DNA of 51,088 bases from IMG/VR virus record IMGVR_UViG_3300039098_000044, positions 1 through 51,088 of that record; one strand, 5' to 3'. The number at the start of each line of letters is the position of its first letter. Position 1 is the first letter of the stretch. The translations under genes were made by a program, and so were the position numbers. Below, piece by piece: positions 7,497 to 45,974 of this stretch. The notes beneath the pieces were generated by a model that had not been told where the DNA came from, searched no databases, and saw only the letters and a list, made by a program, of their open reading frames with translations. Source of the DNA: a virus.

Positions 7497-7989
7497 AAAA
7501 CCAATAGTAGATGAACTTAAGTGGGAAGCCCCACAAAGACCTAGACAAAAGTTAAAGTTTTCAGTACCAATTCCACCCTCAAGTAATAATGCATTTTATA
7601 ACGGAAGGCGTGGAGTTAAAACTTTTGCAAAACTTTGGATGAGCAGATGTAAGGCTCATGTTCTCCAAATAATAGCTGATGAAAACTGGAAGGAGGAAGG
7701 TGAAGAAGTATGGTTTTATATAGACATGATTTTTTACTTTCCTGATAAAAGGTTTAGGGATAATCATAATACATTTAAAATATTTTTCGATGGGCTGCAA
7801 GGAACTTTCATGGTGAATGACTATTATATAATGCCAAGAGTATTTGGTTGTTACCTTGATAGAGATAAACCTAGAGTGGAAGTTGTGATAACAGCTCAAA
7901 CAAAAACTAATCATGAAAAATATAAGAATGGATTTAATAAGAAGAAAACCAATGAGGTGACGAATGTTAAAAAAACCAACAGCGTTTAG
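7489..7989 (+). CDS. rusA: RusA-like Holliday junction resolvase
   Basis: PPSSNNAFY...FYFPDKRFRDNHNTFKIFFDGL matches the RusA pattern (PD.R.RD..N..K...D.L). Confidence 0.65.
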   Translation: MAKKPIVDELKWEAPQRPRQKLKFSVPIPPSSNNAFYNGRRGVKTFAKLWMSRCKAHVLQIIADENWKEEGEEVWFYIDMIFYFPDKRFRDNHNTFKIFFDGLQGTFMVNDYYIMPRVFGCYLDRDKPRVEVVITAQTKTNHEKYKNGFNKKKTNEVTNVKKTNSV

Positions 7990-8534: not shown

Positions 8535-8707
8535 AGATAAATGCTATACAATTTATGGGCGGTCACTTCATCTGTATGATGGATAGTGGTGAAGGCATAG
8601 ATAAAGATTTAATAGAAGGTGACGTTAGAGTAGGTGTATTAGTTGAATACGTAAGCACTGGTAAATATATAGTAACTGGAGCAGCACCTGAAGAGTGTAA
8701 AGTCTGA
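8531..8707 (+). CDS. hypothetical protein
   Basis: ATG 8531 preceded by agaggga; the longer track ORF start (8486) lacks an SD. Confidence 0.55.
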   Translation: MKINAIQFMGGHFICMMDSGEGIDKDLIEGDVRVGVLVEYVSTGKYIVTGAAPEECKV

Positions 8708-41353: not shown

Positions 41354-41813
41354 GCATCTCACAGAGGTGCTTCATTACATAACCCTTGAGCCCTGGGTAG
41401 AGTCAAAAGGGCTCGACCTCCTTTTACATATCCAGTCGGAAGCGGTTATCTCTATAATGTCCGACATTAAAATAAAACCCGCATTACATATCATAGACCT
41501 CATTCCAACGGACGTGTGGAATCTTGGAAAGAAATAATCTTGGTGAGAGTGCACTCAAATAAGCCAAGTGACGAGACGATGTTATAATGACATATATTAA
41601 CCTAGGAAAATAATATATGCAGAAATGCATCTCATGAGGTGGCGCTTATCCAGTAAAGTCTATGAATATTACATAGTAAAATATGTCAAGTCCGTGATGG
41701 TCGGCATACAATAACATCTGGGCTTACAGGGAGTCCAACGTTATGAACAAGAGGCTTTCTAGAAACCTCATCCCTATAATACATACGATCATATATGAGT
41801 ACGCAACAAGTAA
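41354..41813 (+). ncRNA. structured non-coding region upstream of the tRNA array (candidate large ncRNA or pre-tRNA leader)
   Basis: 460 nt with no credible ORF; hairpins 41352-41372 (9 bp), TTGAGCCC/GGGCTCGA, GTCGGA/TCCGAC, ATTCCA/TGGAAT, CTTGG/CCAAG; recurring CATTACATA motif. Confidence 0.35.
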
Positions 41814-41914
41814 AAGTACTGAAGAATACTAGTCAGTAGGTATTAGTAACTAGGGATGTTGCAACCCAGGGTTGATCACTGGGTTCGTGGGTTCGAGTCC
41901 CACCGTACTTTCCA
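41814..41914 (+). ncRNA. 101-nt tRNA-like element with four internal arms, canonical T-arm and encoded CCA; anticodon undetermined
   Basis: Acceptor AAGTACT/CGTACTT (one mismatch); arms AATAC..GTATT, GTAAC tagggat GTTGC, CCCAG..CTGGG; T-arm GTGGG TTCGAGT CCCAC; the putative anticodon loop lacks U33. Confidence 0.4.
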
Positions 41915-41925
41915 ATATTACATAC

Positions 41926-42001
41926 TGGCCCCTAGCTCAGTTGGCAGAGCGTTGGAGTGAAATCCCAAAGGTCCGGAGTTCAACTCTCCGGGGGCCAACC
42001 A
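41926..42001 (+). tRNA. tRNA-Phe (GAA), CCA encoded
   Basis: Hand fold: TGGCCCC/GGGGCCA acceptor, GCTC agttggca GAGC D-arm, anticodon loop GTGAAAT, CGGAG ttcaact CTCCG T-arm; A-C mismatch at 31-39. Confidence 0.8.
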
Positions 42002-42004
42002 CAT

Positions 42005-42078
42005 ATCGGTGTAGCTTAATGGAAAAGCAGTGGTCTCCAAAACCACCCACCTAGGTTCGATCCCTAGTACCGGTGCCA
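42005..42078 (+). tRNA. tRNA-Trp (CCA), CCA end encoded
   Basis: Hand fold: ATCGGTG/TACCGGT acceptor, GCTT aatggaa AAGC, GTGGT ctccaaa ACCAC, CTAGG ttcgatc CCTAG; 74 nt. Confidence 0.85.
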
Positions 42079-42187
42079 TAACGCCTTGGGTGGAGGTGTA
42101 TAAATATCTACCCACCAATGAGTCGGGATTTTTTCCATGTTTTCCGTGCGACTTGCAAAAACACGTAAACAAAAATATGGACGTCGT

Positions 42188-42248
42188 GGTGAGATAACTC
42201 AGCGGTTAGAGTTCATATGAGTCGGTGGTTCAATTCCACCTCTCTCCA
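42188..42248 (+). ncRNA. 61-nt mini tRNA-like element (acceptor, D-arm and T-arm; no anticodon arm)
   Basis: GGTGAGA/TCTCTCC acceptor (one mismatch), ta ACTC agcggtta GAGT, then only TCATATGAGTCG before the T-arm GGTGG ttcaatt CCACC; no CCA. Confidence 0.45.
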
Positions 42249-42257
42249 ACACAACAT

Positions 42258-42319
42258 GGCGGTAATGGCAAGCAAACCCGATTAAGGGTAAGCCGTAGGT
42301 TCGAATCCTACAGCCGCCT
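42258..42319 (+). ncRNA. about 61-nt truncated tRNA-like element
   Basis: GGCGGTA/AGCCGCC acceptor (imperfect), central ACCC gattaa GGGT hairpin, T-arm GTAGG ttcgaat CCTAC; too short for a cloverleaf; no CCA. Confidence 0.35.
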
Positions 42320-42326
42320 TTAATAT

Positions 42327-42388
42327 GGTCAGATAACTCAGTTAGGATGAGTTCACGTGAGACGCTGGTTCGATTCCAGCTCTGACCA
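42327..42388 (+). ncRNA. 61-nt mini tRNA-like element, paralog of 42188..42248
   Basis: Perfect acceptor GGTCAGA/TCTGACC, ta ACTC agttaggat GAGT, then TCACGTGAGAC, T-arm GCTGG ttcgatt CCAGC; no CCA. Confidence 0.45.
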
Positions 42389-42400
42389 ACTTACATACAT

Positions 42401-42485
42401 GCCCTATTATGCTGCTAAAGAGTCAGCCCGGACTGTAAATCCGTACTTAATCGTCGAGTGGGTTCAATACCCTCATGGGGCACCA
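42401..42485 (+). tRNA. tRNA-Tyr (GTA), long variable arm, CCA encoded
   Basis: GCCCTAT/ATGGGGC acceptor; CGGACTGTAAATCCG anticodon arm as in bacterial tRNA-Tyr; 13-nt variable region; T-loop ttcaata; 85 nt. Confidence 0.75.
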
Positions 42486-42487
42486 AA

Positions 42488-42520
42488 GAGGACGATGTTG
42501 GTTCGAATCCAACAAATTTA
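42488..42520 (+). pseudogene. tRNA 3-prime-half fragment (anticodon-stem strand, T-arm, acceptor strand)
   Basis: GAGGA cgat GTTGG ttcgaat CCAAC aaattta, starting 3 nt after tRNA-Tyr. Confidence 0.45.
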
Positions 42521-42566
42521 ATTACGAAGACTATAAATAGTGCGCAATAGATATAGTTAGGGGAAT

Positions 42567-42603
42567 ATAATGATAGCTCAACGGTAGAGCATCCTCATTA
42601 CAT
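42567..42603 (+). pseudogene. tRNA 5-prime-half fragment with Val-like UAC loop
   Basis: ATAATGA ta GCTC aacggta GAGC a TCCTC attacat; no complementary 3-prime stem strand follows. Confidence 0.4.
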
Positions 42604-42818
42604 AAGCGCTATGTGGCCCTCAGCAAGGCCTAGTAATTGCTGGCAAACAATACTTTAATGGATCGTGTGAAATGTCCTTTAAAATACTCCTTATAAAATT
42701 GAGACTCGTAAGTAGTCATGGTGCCCTCGCTTCTTCGATATAACATTCGAAGGCCAGCTCACGTATTCGGTAAATCAAGTTAGGATGGTTTCGACATATT
42801 AAAGTTAACTTTGGATTT

Positions 42819-42850
42819 AAGTGTACTAGCAATACACTTTATATAATTTT
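42819..42850 (+). terminator. terminator-like hairpin closing the RNA island
   Basis: AAGTGTA ctagcaa TACACTT followed by tatataatttt. Confidence 0.45.
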
Positions 42851-42938
42851 AGAGTTTCATATTATACCTCCTTTTAATATGCAAATCGGCTCTATGGTCT
42901 TCGGCTAGAAATTGAAGACCTTACATAAGGAGATGACT

Positions 42939-45479: not shown

Positions 45480-45974
45480 ATGAGTGAAATATGGAAGGTT
45501 ATAAATGGATATGAAAAATATGAAATATCTAATATTGGAAACGTTAGAAAAGGAAAATTATTATTATCACCGCAGGTAAATCAATGTGGATATATAGTAA
45601 TAAGATTAACAAAGAATAAAAAAAGATATCATAATAGTATCCACAGACTAGTTGCTATTGCATTTATACCAAACATAGACAACCTAAAAGAAGTAAATCA
45701 TATAGATGGAAACAAATTAAATAATGATTATACAAACTTAGAGTGGTCAAGTAGGTCGAAAAATATACAACATGCATATGATACTGGCCTGAAAATAGCA
45801 TTATCAGGTATAAATCACCCACAAGTAACATTAAGCAAAGAAATTTGTTTAAAAATACAAGATGATTTAAACGAAGGAAAATTATCAAAAACTAATATAG
45901 CAAAAAAGTATAATACAAATAGAAAACTAGTGTATAATATACAACATAAAATACATTGGTCAATGAGGGATTAA
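45480..45974 (+). mobile_element. free-standing HNH homing endonuclease (NUMOD4-like N-terminus plus HNH)
   Basis: EIWKVINGYEKYEISNIGNVRK and VNHIDGNKLNNDYTNLEW. Confidence 0.75.

What the first reader, a model, noticed from the sequence alone, without database searches (positions are those of the whole stretch)
42188..42388. Three tandem ~61-nt mini tRNA-like elements with no room for an anticodon arm
Three units spaced about 70 nt apart each have a 7-bp acceptor stem and a canonical T-arm (GGTTCAATTCC, GGTTCGAATCC, GGTTCGATTCC). Each is only about 61 nt long. Units 1 and 3 are clear paralogs. Both have a normal D-arm (taACTCagcggttaGAGT and taACTCagttaggatGAGT). Only 11-12 nt then follow (TCATATGAGTCG and TCACGTGAGAC, each with a palindromic core) before the T-arm. 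A normal tRNA has a 17-nt anticodon arm at that position. None encodes CCA, whereas the three canonical tRNAs and the 101-nt element all do. Retention of acceptor, D and T elements in two copies argues against simple decay. They could be acceptor/elbow mimics, for example decoys or competitors for host tRNA-targeting nucleases, CCA-adding or modification enzymes, RNase P or synthetases. They could also be processing punctuation.
Basis: partly seen in the sequence, partly recalled or inferred. Interest (0 to 1): 0.65.

Follow-up and report, generated by a model that had tools for sequence, protein, structure and literature searches.

The report
Phage tRNA-like genes lacking anticodon arm
Two of the three units are real tRNA-shaped genes that keep the acceptor, D and T parts but have almost no anticodon arm, so they cannot read codons; similar genes occur in many other phages and their function is unknown.

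Summary
Units 1 (42188-42248) and 3 (42327-42388) score 45.9 and 44.2 bits on the Rfam tRNA model (cut-off 29). The alignment lacks exactly 11 model positions in the anticodon arm. Unit 2 (42258-42319) is different: it has no D arm, one central arm with a 6-nt loop, and scores 16.3 bits. None encodes CCA.

They do not look like simple decay. Units 1 and 3 differ by two compensated stem changes (simulated P about 0.003). Three syntenic relatives, with flanking proteins only 42-48% identical, carry a tRNA-like element at unit 3's position. Its central arm varies from 2 to 7 bp and never has a 7-nt anticodon loop.

A degenerate pattern scan of IMG/VR gave 57 unique, well-formed elements of the same design. 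Cultured Vibrio, Bacteroides and Alteromonas phages carry them too. In Vibrio phage K476 the element is the positional ortholog of a full tRNA-Arg(CCU), with a 14-nt gap in the alignment at the anticodon arm. One family upstream of small-terminase genes is 84-90% conserved while the terminases are 24-31% identical.

Best guess, unproven: these are acceptor/elbow modules used as RNase P/RNase Z processing punctuation. A decoy role remains open. I found no prior description of the class.

The parts
42188..42248 (+). Unit 1: 61-nt tRNA-like gene without an anticodon arm. Acceptor 42188-42194 / 42241-47 (U.U at 3:70). D arm 42197-42212. 11-nt linker 42213-42223. T arm 42224-42240. Discriminator A at 42248. 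No CCA.
   Evidence: Rfam tRNA 45.9 bits with 11 anticodon-arm positions absent. Stems listed. Lies where relative L001 has a canonical tRNA-Gln.
42258..42319 (+). Unit 2: 62-nt tRNA-like element of a different design. Acceptor stem 6 of 7 pairs. No D arm. One central arm with a 6-nt loop. T arm 42295-42311. Discriminator T. No CCA.
   Evidence: Rfam tRNA 16.3 bits. MFE -24.5 kcal/mol, z = -3.3, 0 of 200 shuffles fold as well. Its T arm GTAGGTTCGAATCCTAC is identical to that of L001 2119-2190.
42327..42388 (+). Unit 3: 62-nt tRNA-like gene without an anticodon arm, a paralog of unit 1. Perfect 7-bp acceptor, 4-bp D stem and 5-bp T stem. Linker TCACGTGAGAC. Discriminator A. No CCA.
   Evidence: Rfam tRNA 44.2 bits. 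Positional ortholog of L001 2533-2601, L004 8716-8787 and L006 158-228. Covariation.
41926..42078 (+). Canonical tRNA-Phe(GAA) 41926-42001 and tRNA-Trp(CCA) 42005-42078. Both encode CCA and lie in the same RNA island.
   Evidence: ARAGORN. Rfam 56.3 and 56.5 bits. CCA ends.
41354..42911 (+). About 1.55 kb RNA island without ORFs that holds all these elements. It is punctuated by the heptamer TTACATA.
   Evidence: ORF list. 8 of the 11 plus-strand TTACATA copies in the 51-kb window fall in this island. The motif is conserved in relatives, 0-3 nt before the 5' ends of RNA elements.

Best explanation
Units 1 and 3 are genes for tRNA-derived RNAs that cannot decode. This part is well supported. 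They keep the parts that form the tRNA 'top half' and elbow: acceptor stem, D arm, T arm and variable-region nucleotides. The 17-nt anticodon arm is reduced to about 5-6 nt, at most a 2-bp stem with a 4-nt cap.

Such genes arise from ordinary phage tRNA genes by loss of the anticodon arm and are then kept. This is shown directly in another phage and inferred here.

Inferred mechanism, not shown: the units are co-transcribed with the neighbouring tRNAs. The enzymes that read only the acceptor/T stack and elbow recognise them: RNase P at the 5' end, RNase Z or exonucleases at the 3' end, and possibly the CCA-adding enzyme. They would then act as decoding-neutral processing punctuation. They would cut the polycistronic island transcript into defined pieces and be released as stable RNAs of about 61 nt. 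In other phages they would cut mRNA just ahead of the small-terminase gene.

Unit 2 is a second, D-arm-less kind of non-decoding tRNA-like element in the same operon.
For: tRNA-model scores above cut-off, with only the anticodon arm missing.

Internal control. True decay products lie nearby in the island: a 5' half at 42560-42597 and a lone T arm at 42496-42514. These are open fragments. Units 1-3 are closed structures.

Unit 1 versus unit 3. Of 16 stem pairs, 13 are identical, 2 carry compensated double changes (4:69 and 50:64) and 1 carries a single change. Simulation gives P = 0.003.

Five related elements from four phage lineages are 91% paired, and 9 of 16 pairs change on both sides. No shuffle of 500 reached the observed paired percentage or covariation score, and slid controls give 41-50% paired.

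The central arm of the unit 3 ortholog varies: 2 bp + 4 nt, 3 bp + 6 nt, 6 bp + 5 nt, 6-7 bp + 4 nt. An arm whose length can drift this far points to readers of the top half only.

All six non-decoding elements have T at -1 and GG at +1/+2, read from the sequences. Favourability for RNase P is from my general knowledge.

Origin by arm deletion. The Vibrio phage K476 element aligns to the tRNA-Arg(CCU) of sister phage 144E46.1 with a 14-nt gap at the anticodon arm plus a few substitutions.

Class and context. They are co-oriented with the downstream ORF in 44 of 53 cases. Several sit 14-41 nt before a start codon. About 10 neighbours are small-terminase genes.

In the terminase-upstream family, L011's element is 84-90% identical to the other four, its terminase only 24-31% and its upstream DNA 56-59% except L115, 95%.

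In L006 the element ends 25 nt before an ORF start.
Against: There are no expression, cleavage or 3'-end data for any of these elements.

In this window the three units sit among tRNAs rather than between protein genes, so the value of extra cleavage sites is unclear. Ordinary tRNAs already provide RNase P sites.

Bases after the discriminator (ACA, ACT) are not the U-rich trailer that, from memory, Bacillus RNase Z prefers.

Any set of intact tRNAs shows covariation. That result proves intact folds, not this function.

Only four lineages of this phage group exist in the databases searched.

The K476 case could equally be a young pseudogene made redundant by a second tRNA-Arg(CCU).
Confidence: 0.4

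Rival explanations
1. The units are decoys or sponges for tRNA-targeting host factors. They present a tRNA body (elbow plus acceptor end) with no cleavable anticodon arm. This would competitively occupy anticodon-arm or anticodon-loop nucleases of anti-phage systems, or toxins that modify the acceptor end, and so protect the phage's and host's working tRNAs.
For: They lie in a phage tRNA island, the kind of locus known to counter tRNA-cleaving defences. P2 Old severs the anticodon stem, and phage tRNAs resist it partly through a shorter anticodon stem (PMC12445682). A Schlafen-like defence nuclease yields 'anticodon-less tRNA' (review PMC13434031).

Two unrelated phage groups, Vibrio K476 and Bacteroides phages, each pair a tRNA-Arg(CCU)-type element lacking the arm with a separate full tRNA-Arg(CCU). 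Both such elements have U in place of A20. A20 as the ArgRS identity element is from my memory.
Against: The central arm varies from 2 to 7 bp among orthologs. That fits poorly with mimicry of a nuclease's anticodon-arm substrate.

Many such elements stand alone next to structural genes with no tRNA nearby.

Literature searches found no tRNA-decoy precedent in phages.

A competitive decoy would have to reach tRNA-like abundance.
Confidence: 0.2
2. The units are non-functional relics. tRNA genes in a fast-turnover island lost the anticodon hairpin, for example by replication slippage across it, and have not yet decayed.
For: tRNA content differs completely between lineages: Phe/Trp here, Asn/Gln/His in L001, Ile/Trp/Gln in L004.

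Unit 1 sits where L001 has an intact tRNA-Gln.

The island holds clear fragments.

The K476 element looks like a fairly recent deletion, with a replacement tRNA-Arg present.

Unit 1 has an acceptor mismatch. No unit encodes CCA, although the canonical tRNAs here do.
Against: Two compensated stem changes separate units 1 and 3 (P about 0.003).

A non-decoding element has persisted at unit 3's position across lineages whose flanking proteins are 42-48% identical.

L011's terminase-upstream element is far better conserved than its downstream terminase gene and, against three of the four other contigs, its upstream DNA.

The 57 elements have intact 7-, 4- and 5-bp stems. This last point is biased, because my scan required good stems.
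Confidence: 0.2
3. The units are aminoacyl carriers used outside the ribosome. After CCA addition they would be charged by a synthetase that reads only the acceptor/elbow. A tRNA-dependent transferase would then use them.
For: G1-C72, G2-C71 and A5-U68 are invariant in all five related elements while other pairs covary. This could reflect sequence-specific acceptor recognition. An uncharacterised 421-aa protein and an M20/M28/M42-like hydrolase are conserved just downstream.
Against: There is no G3:U70 and no other known anticodon-independent identity set.

Discriminators differ among orthologs (A, T, T, T).

No synthetase- or Fem-like domain appears in the neighbours.

The neighbour's structure model was unusable (pLDDT 48).

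The whole genome is syntenic between relatives, so adjacency says little.
Confidence: 0.07
4. The role is at the DNA level. The tRNA-like sequences and the TTACATA heptamers would serve as conserved junctions for cassette shuffling or module recombination.
For: TTACATA flanks nearly every element in three lineages while the cassettes between them differ. L011 and L115 share 95% identical upstream DNA but have terminases only 29% identical, with the tRNA-like element at the junction.
Against: A recombination site does not need conserved T-loop and D-loop tertiary nucleotides, nor compensated stems. TTACATA also sits directly before a ribosome-binding site at 42921, which suggests an RNA-level signal.
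Confidence: 0.06

Closest known systems
mascRNA / MALAT1 and MEN-beta tRNA-like 3'-end modules (mammals; from my own knowledge)
   Same: A roughly 61-nt cloverleaf-like RNA with acceptor, D and T features and a short, non-conserved 'anticodon' arm. It does not decode. It is defined by RNase P and RNase Z cleavage, which also process the neighbouring RNA.
   Different: It is eukaryotic and nuclear. It keeps a small anticodon stem-loop. Cleavage is proven there and untested here. There is no sequence relationship.
Murine gammaherpesvirus 68 tRNA-like / TMER RNAs (from my own knowledge)
   Same: Virus-encoded tRNA-like units that are not aminoacylated. They are arranged in tandem with downstream hairpins, and RNase Z cleavage releases the neighbouring RNAs. 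The island here also alternates tRNA-like units with conserved hairpins.
   Different: They are pol III transcripts of a eukaryotic virus. They keep an anticodon arm. The hairpins there are pre-miRNAs.
tmRNA tRNA-like domain
   Same: Acceptor stem plus T arm with no anticodon arm. Top-half enzymes recognise it.
   Different: tmRNA has a G3:U70 alanine identity pair, a reduced D loop and a roughly 300-nt mRNA-like insert with a tag ORF. ARAGORN found no tmRNA. Positions 3:70 here are U.U and U-A. Rfam gives only an 18-nt T-arm fragment match elsewhere in the island.
Phage tRNA variants with altered or shortened anticodon stems that escape tRNA nucleases (P2 Old; PMC12445682)
   Same: Phage-encoded tRNA genes in tRNA islands whose anticodon stem is remodelled.
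   Different: Those tRNAs still decode and replace the cleaved host tRNA. Units 1-3 have no anticodon loop and cannot.
Arm-lacking mitochondrial tRNAs (nematodes, mites; PMC6158502, PMC2797822)
   Same: Drastically shortened tRNAs of about 42-60 nt that keep an L-like shape. Unit 2 resembles the D-arm-less type.
   Different: Those lose the D and/or T arm but always keep the anticodon arm and still decode. Units 1 and 3 are the inverse case.

Membership tests
Canonical tRNA (Rfam RF00005) | 7-bp acceptor stem, D arm, and T arm with a GTTCRANYC loop | tested here: met
   Units 1 and 3 have all three: acceptor 6/7 and 7/7 pairs, D stem 4/4, T stem 5/5. They score 45.9 and 44.2 bits against a cut-off of 29. 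Unit 2 lacks the D arm and scores 16.3 bits.
Canonical tRNA (Rfam RF00005) | 5-bp anticodon stem with a 7-nt loop (U33, anticodon at 34-36) | tested here: not met
   Only 11 nt lie between the D stem and the T stem. The model alignment deletes 11 positions. ARAGORN calls no tRNA here. Unit 2's only central loop has 6 nt and no U33.
Canonical tRNA (Rfam RF00005) | 3' CCA end and aminoacylation | not testable with these tools
   CCA is not encoded (AACA, TTTA, AACT follow the acceptor stem), whereas Phe and Trp in the island encode it. Post-transcriptional CCA addition and charging need experiments.
tRNA pseudogene (neutral relic) | Stems accumulate uncompensated changes, and the element does not persist across diverged relatives | tested here: not met
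   Units 1 and 3 differ by 2 compensated and 1 uncompensated stem change (P = 0.003). A non-decoding element is present at unit 3's position in 4 lineages, 91% paired. The sample is small, so this is suggestive rather than final.
tmRNA | G3:U70 pair and an internal tag-peptide reading frame with pseudoknots | tested here: not met
   ARAGORN finds no tmRNA. Positions 3:70 are U.U and U-A. The elements are 61-62 nt with no insert.
Y RNA-like YrlA (RF02553) | tRNA-like domain joined to a Ro-binding stem; Rfam score of at least 69 | tested here: not met
   The only match is a 19.2-bit partial hit at 41885-41950, outside the units.
tRNA-like processing modules (mascRNA / TMER type) | Cleaved by RNase P at the 5' end and RNase Z at the 3' end, so that neighbouring RNAs are matured | not testable with these tools
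   Only indirect hints are available: T at -1 and G at +1 in all six elements (read), tight intercistronic placement in other phages, and tolerance of any central-arm length.
Phage anticodon-arm-less tRNA-like class (defined here) | 55-66 nt; closed 7-bp acceptor; canonical D and T arms; 9-16 nt linker in place of the 23-nt anticodon arm plus variable region; Rfam tRNA score of about 42-49 bits | tested here: met
   Units 1 and 3 fit. Elements from IMG/VR and the K476 element score 41.9-49.4 bits. 57 unique examples were found.

The most novel reading that the evidence does not exclude
Phages widely encode a dedicated class of tRNA 'top-half' mimics without an anticodon arm. These would act in trans on host factors. 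One option is as uncleavable competitive inhibitors of tRNA-targeting immune nucleases or acceptor-end toxins. For units 1 and 3 a second option is as homodimers joined through their self-complementary 8-nt linkers. Computed duplex energies are -7.4 kcal/mol for UCAUAUGA and -10.7 kcal/mol for UCACGUGA. That would make them an RNA-based anti-defence or host-takeover tool rather than processing signals or relics.
Probability: 0.18. Interest if true: 0.85.

Novelty: new variant of a known kind. Interest (0 to 1): 0.68.

Why it matters
Phage tRNA genes are currently read either as codon-usage helpers or as spare parts against tRNA-cleaving immunity. A recurrent, conserved tRNA gene form that cannot decode fits neither reading. 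ARAGORN and Rfam with its default filters skip these elements, or they are labelled as a product-less 'tRNA', so they are largely invisible in phage annotation. If they are processing modules, they extend the tRNA punctuation idea from mitochondria and MALAT1 to phage operons, including the start of the packaging operon. If they are decoys, they would be a new RNA class of anti-defence factor. Both ideas can be tested directly with cultured phages that carry them: the Vibrio phage K476 group, Bacteroides phage BF1-TP2 and Alteromonas phage PT15-A5.

Tried and rejected
1. Close relatives in cultured phages. blastn of the island and tblastn of the 421-aa neighbour found nothing useful. The DnaE-type polymerase has at most 34% identity to known phages.

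2. More relatives of this phage group.
- A specific unit 1/3 pattern in IMG/VR gave 0 hits.
- The protein-based IMG/VR scan gave 0.
- The protein database gave only three relatives.
- A pattern for the conserved 42-nt hairpin returned only the known L004 phage plus chance hits in high-GC DNA.

3. Neighbouring genes as a functional clue. Pfam, PHROGs and NCBIfam give a generic radical-SAM protein, an M20/M28/M42-like hydrolase and unknowns. The AlphaFold model of the 421-aa protein was too poor (pLDDT 48) to justify a fold search.

4. The palindrome as evidence for a conserved anticodon stem or for dimerisation. This was rejected as evidence. Joined stem halves are palindromic by construction, and the TA-to-CG change keeps the symmetry about 1 time in 3 by chance. 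Other such elements have non-palindromic 3-8-nt connectors. Dimerisation is energetically possible only in silico.

5. TTACATA as a sigma-70-type promoter. The consensus scan was not enriched (11 found against 8.3 expected). The motif lies only 0-3 nt before RNA 5' ends, too close for a -10 element.

6. Literature. Five full-text searches found no description of tRNA genes without an anticodon arm in phages. A 2023 survey lists generic 'tRNA-like' candidate RNAs in viruses without this feature (PMC10690425).

Full report
**Setting.** The window is a roughly 34% GC tailed-phage genome segment. It encodes a DnaE-type polymerase, portal, terminase and major head protein. It has no near relative among cultured phages. 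The finding lies in a 1.55-kb stretch without ORFs (41354-42911). This stretch sits between a radical-SAM gene plus a small ORF on one side, and a small ORF, a 421-aa unknown protein and an M20/M28/M42-like hydrolase on the other. All of these are on the + strand.

**Observation.**
- ARAGORN reports only Pro(?), Phe and Trp. Rfam with default filters reports only Phe and Trp.
- In sensitive mode the Rfam tRNA model matches unit 1 (42188-42248) at 45.9 bits and unit 3 (42327-42388) at 44.2 bits. The cut-off is 29.
- That alignment is complete except for 11 missing positions in the anticodon arm.
- Stem by stem, unit 1 has 6 of 7 acceptor pairs (U.U at 3:70) and unit 3 has 7 of 7. Both have a 4-bp D stem and a 5-bp T stem. 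Only 11 nt lie between the D stem and the T stem, where a tRNA has about 23.
- Unit 2 (42258-42319) is a different object. It has no D arm, one central arm with a 6-nt loop and a canonical T arm. It scores 16.3 bits but folds well (z = -3.3).
- None of the three encodes CCA. Phe and Trp, and by eye the two odd elements next to them, do.

**The palindromes.** The palindromes TCATATGA and TCACGTGA are not independent evidence. Stem halves joined without a loop are palindromic automatically. An equally good reading is a 2-bp stub capped by 4 nt, or a 5-nt connector closed by the 26:44 positions.

**Are they decaying?** Three observations argue against simple decay.
1. The island contains true wreckage for comparison: a tRNA 5' half cut off at a TTACATA (42560-42597) and a lone T-arm hairpin (42496-42514). 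Units 1-3 are closed structures.
2. Units 1 and 3 are paralogs. Of their 16 stem pairs, two differ by G-C to C-G swaps on both strands (4:69 and 50:64) and one by a single change. Five random stem substitutions give this pattern with P = 0.003.
3. The 421-aa neighbour has three relatives in 5.8 billion proteins, at 42-48% identity. Their contigs are syntenic and carry the same kind of RNA island.

**Orthologs of unit 3.** Aligning the islands puts unit 3 opposite L001 2533-2601, L004 8716-8787 and L006 158-228.
- All four start with GG directly after (TTAC)ATAT.
- All four lack an encoded CCA.
- Their central arms differ: 2 bp + 4 nt, 3 bp + 6 nt, 6 bp + 5 nt, and 6-7 bp + 4 nt. None is a 7-nt anticodon loop.
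- Across these elements plus unit 1, 91% of stem cells pair and 9 of 16 pairs change on both sides. No shuffle of 500 reached the observed paired percentage or covariation score, and slid controls give 41-50% paired.
- Any set of intact tRNAs would covary in this way. The result shows that intact folds persist at one genomic position across deep divergence. It does not identify a function.

Unit 1 occupies the slot where L001 has a normal tRNA-Gln.

**A wider class.** The degenerate pattern CTCAG N5-9 GAGY N13-19 GGTTCRANTCC describes a D arm placed too close to a T loop.
- A stem-checking script found 57 unique elements of 55-66 nt with a closed acceptor, D and T stems and a 10-16-nt linker.
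- Those tested score 41.9-49.4 bits on the tRNA model, the same band as units 1 and 3. Full tRNAs in the same loci score 52-76.
- Most are intergenic and co-oriented with the downstream ORF (44 of 53). Only 6 of 57 encode CCA.
- Many have no canonical tRNA nearby.
- About ten neighbour a small-terminase gene.
- In that family, L011's element is 84-90% identical to those of four other contigs. Its terminase proteins are only 24-31% identical to theirs. Its upstream 150 nt are 56-59% identical to three of them and 95% identical to L115.

**Cultured phages.** Cultured phages carry such elements too.
- In Vibrio phage K476 the 60-nt element carries an encoded CCA and is annotated as a product-less 'tRNA'.
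- It sits exactly where the sister phage 144E46.1 has tRNA-Arg(CCU).
- The two align with a 14-nt gap that removes the anticodon arm, plus a few substitutions.
- K476 also carries a second, different tRNA-Arg(CCU).
- Bacteroides phages have a very similar element without the arm, plus a separate tRNA-Arg(CCU). Both elements have U where the full tRNA has A20.

The route of origin is therefore deletion of the anticodon arm from a working tRNA gene, and it has happened more than once.

**Mechanism.** Nothing here measures RNA, so function is inferred.
- The central arm can be any length, while the acceptor, T arm and elbow nucleotides are kept. This points to readers of the tRNA top half: RNase P, RNase Z, the CCA-adding enzyme and T-loop modifiers.
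- Placement between co-oriented genes, often 14-41 nt before a start codon, fits processing punctuation that cannot cause mistranslation. Alternation with conserved hairpins in this island fits the same idea.
- The nearest working analogies, from my own knowledge, are mascRNA/MALAT1 and the MHV68 tRNA-like/TMER units.
- I give this 0.4.
- A decoy for tRNA-targeting defences is attractive given recent work on anticodon-arm amputation (PMC12445682). The tRNA-Arg pairing above also fits. The variable arm and the stand-alone copies fit less well. I give it 0.2.
- Neutral relics get 0.2.
- A non-ribosomal aminoacyl carrier and a DNA-level junction role are minor options.

**Comparison and novelty.**
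- They are not tRNAs in the functional sense, because the anticodon arm was tested and is absent.
- They are not tmRNA. There is no G3:U70 and no tag frame.
- They are not YrlA (19 bits against a cut-off of 69).
- They are the inverse of the arm-less mitochondrial tRNAs, which keep the anticodon arm.
- Five full-text searches found no description of this gene form in phages.
- I rate it a new variant of a known kind (non-decoding tRNA-like RNAs), real, apparently overlooked, and testable in cultured phages.

Noticed in passing
window 41375-42927 (+); L001 1703-2763; L004 7752-8932: The heptamer TTACATA (variants ATACATA, TTACATG, ATACGTA) punctuates the RNA island. 8 of the window's 11 plus-strand copies fall within 1.55 kb. 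Copies lie 0-3 nt before the 5' ends of tRNAs and tRNA-like elements, and one lies directly before the ribosome-binding site of the ORF starting near 42930. The motif is conserved in all lineages even though the cassettes between copies differ. It could be an RNA cleavage signal or leader, or a cassette junction.
   Followed up: partly
window 41382-41423; L001 1986-2029; L004 7759-7799: A conserved hairpin RNA of about 42 nt (ACCCTTGAGCCCTGGGTAGAGTCAAAAGGGCTC...) is bracketed on both sides by TTACATA in three lineages. It has no Rfam match. A pattern search found no further relatives.
   Followed up: partly
window ~42896-42920; L001 ~2501-2523; L004 ~8684-8706: Hairpins with a conserved GGCTAGAAA(T/C) loop are followed by TTACATA or ATAT. 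In the island alignment the T arm of unit 2 lines up with this hairpin in the relatives.
   Followed up: no
window 41824-41914: ARAGORN's 91-nt 'tRNA-Pro(GGG)' gets no Rfam tRNA hit. Its central arm is the near-palindrome CAACCCAGGGTTG (5 bp plus a 3-nt loop), and it ends in TCCA. It is probably another non-decoding tRNA-like element. A related sequence lies at L004 about 7690-7750.
   Followed up: partly
window 42401-42486: A Tyr(GUA)-like element with a long variable arm and an encoded ACCA. It has mismatches in the T and anticodon stems. Neither ARAGORN nor Rfam called it.
   Followed up: partly
window 42496-42514 and 42560-42597: True tRNA debris: a lone T-arm hairpin followed by a T-rich run (terminator-like), and a tRNA 5' half (GGGGAAT..TAGCTCAACGGTAGAGCA) cut off at a TTACATA.
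   Followed up: no
L004 8536-8659: A 124-nt composite tRNA-like element occupies the slot of unit 1. It has a perfect 7-bp acceptor (GAGATGT/ACATCTC), discriminator A and an encoded CCA. It encloses two T-arm-like hairpins and a D-arm-like hairpin.
   Followed up: no
L127 3002-3064 (Vibrio phage K476, OZ195911) vs L133 1201-1277 (phage 144E46.1, MW824370); L044 4632-4694: A tRNA-Arg(CCU)-derived element without the anticodon arm has U in place of A20. It is accompanied by a second full tRNA-Arg(CCU) in both Vibrio and Bacteroides phages. This is a striking parallel between unrelated phage groups.
   Followed up: partly
L011 436-497; L056 8503-8563; L065 2300-2360; L092 5827-5887; L115 1731-1791: A conserved tRNA-like element without an anticodon arm lies 23-35 nt upstream of small-terminase start codons. 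L011's copy is much better conserved than its terminase gene. L011 and L115 share 95% identical upstream DNA but have terminases only 29% identical.
   Followed up: partly
window 45480-45974: A free-standing HNH_3 + NUMOD4 homing-endonuclease gene follows the hydrolase gene. The syntenic relatives have only tiny ORFs at that position.
   Followed up: no
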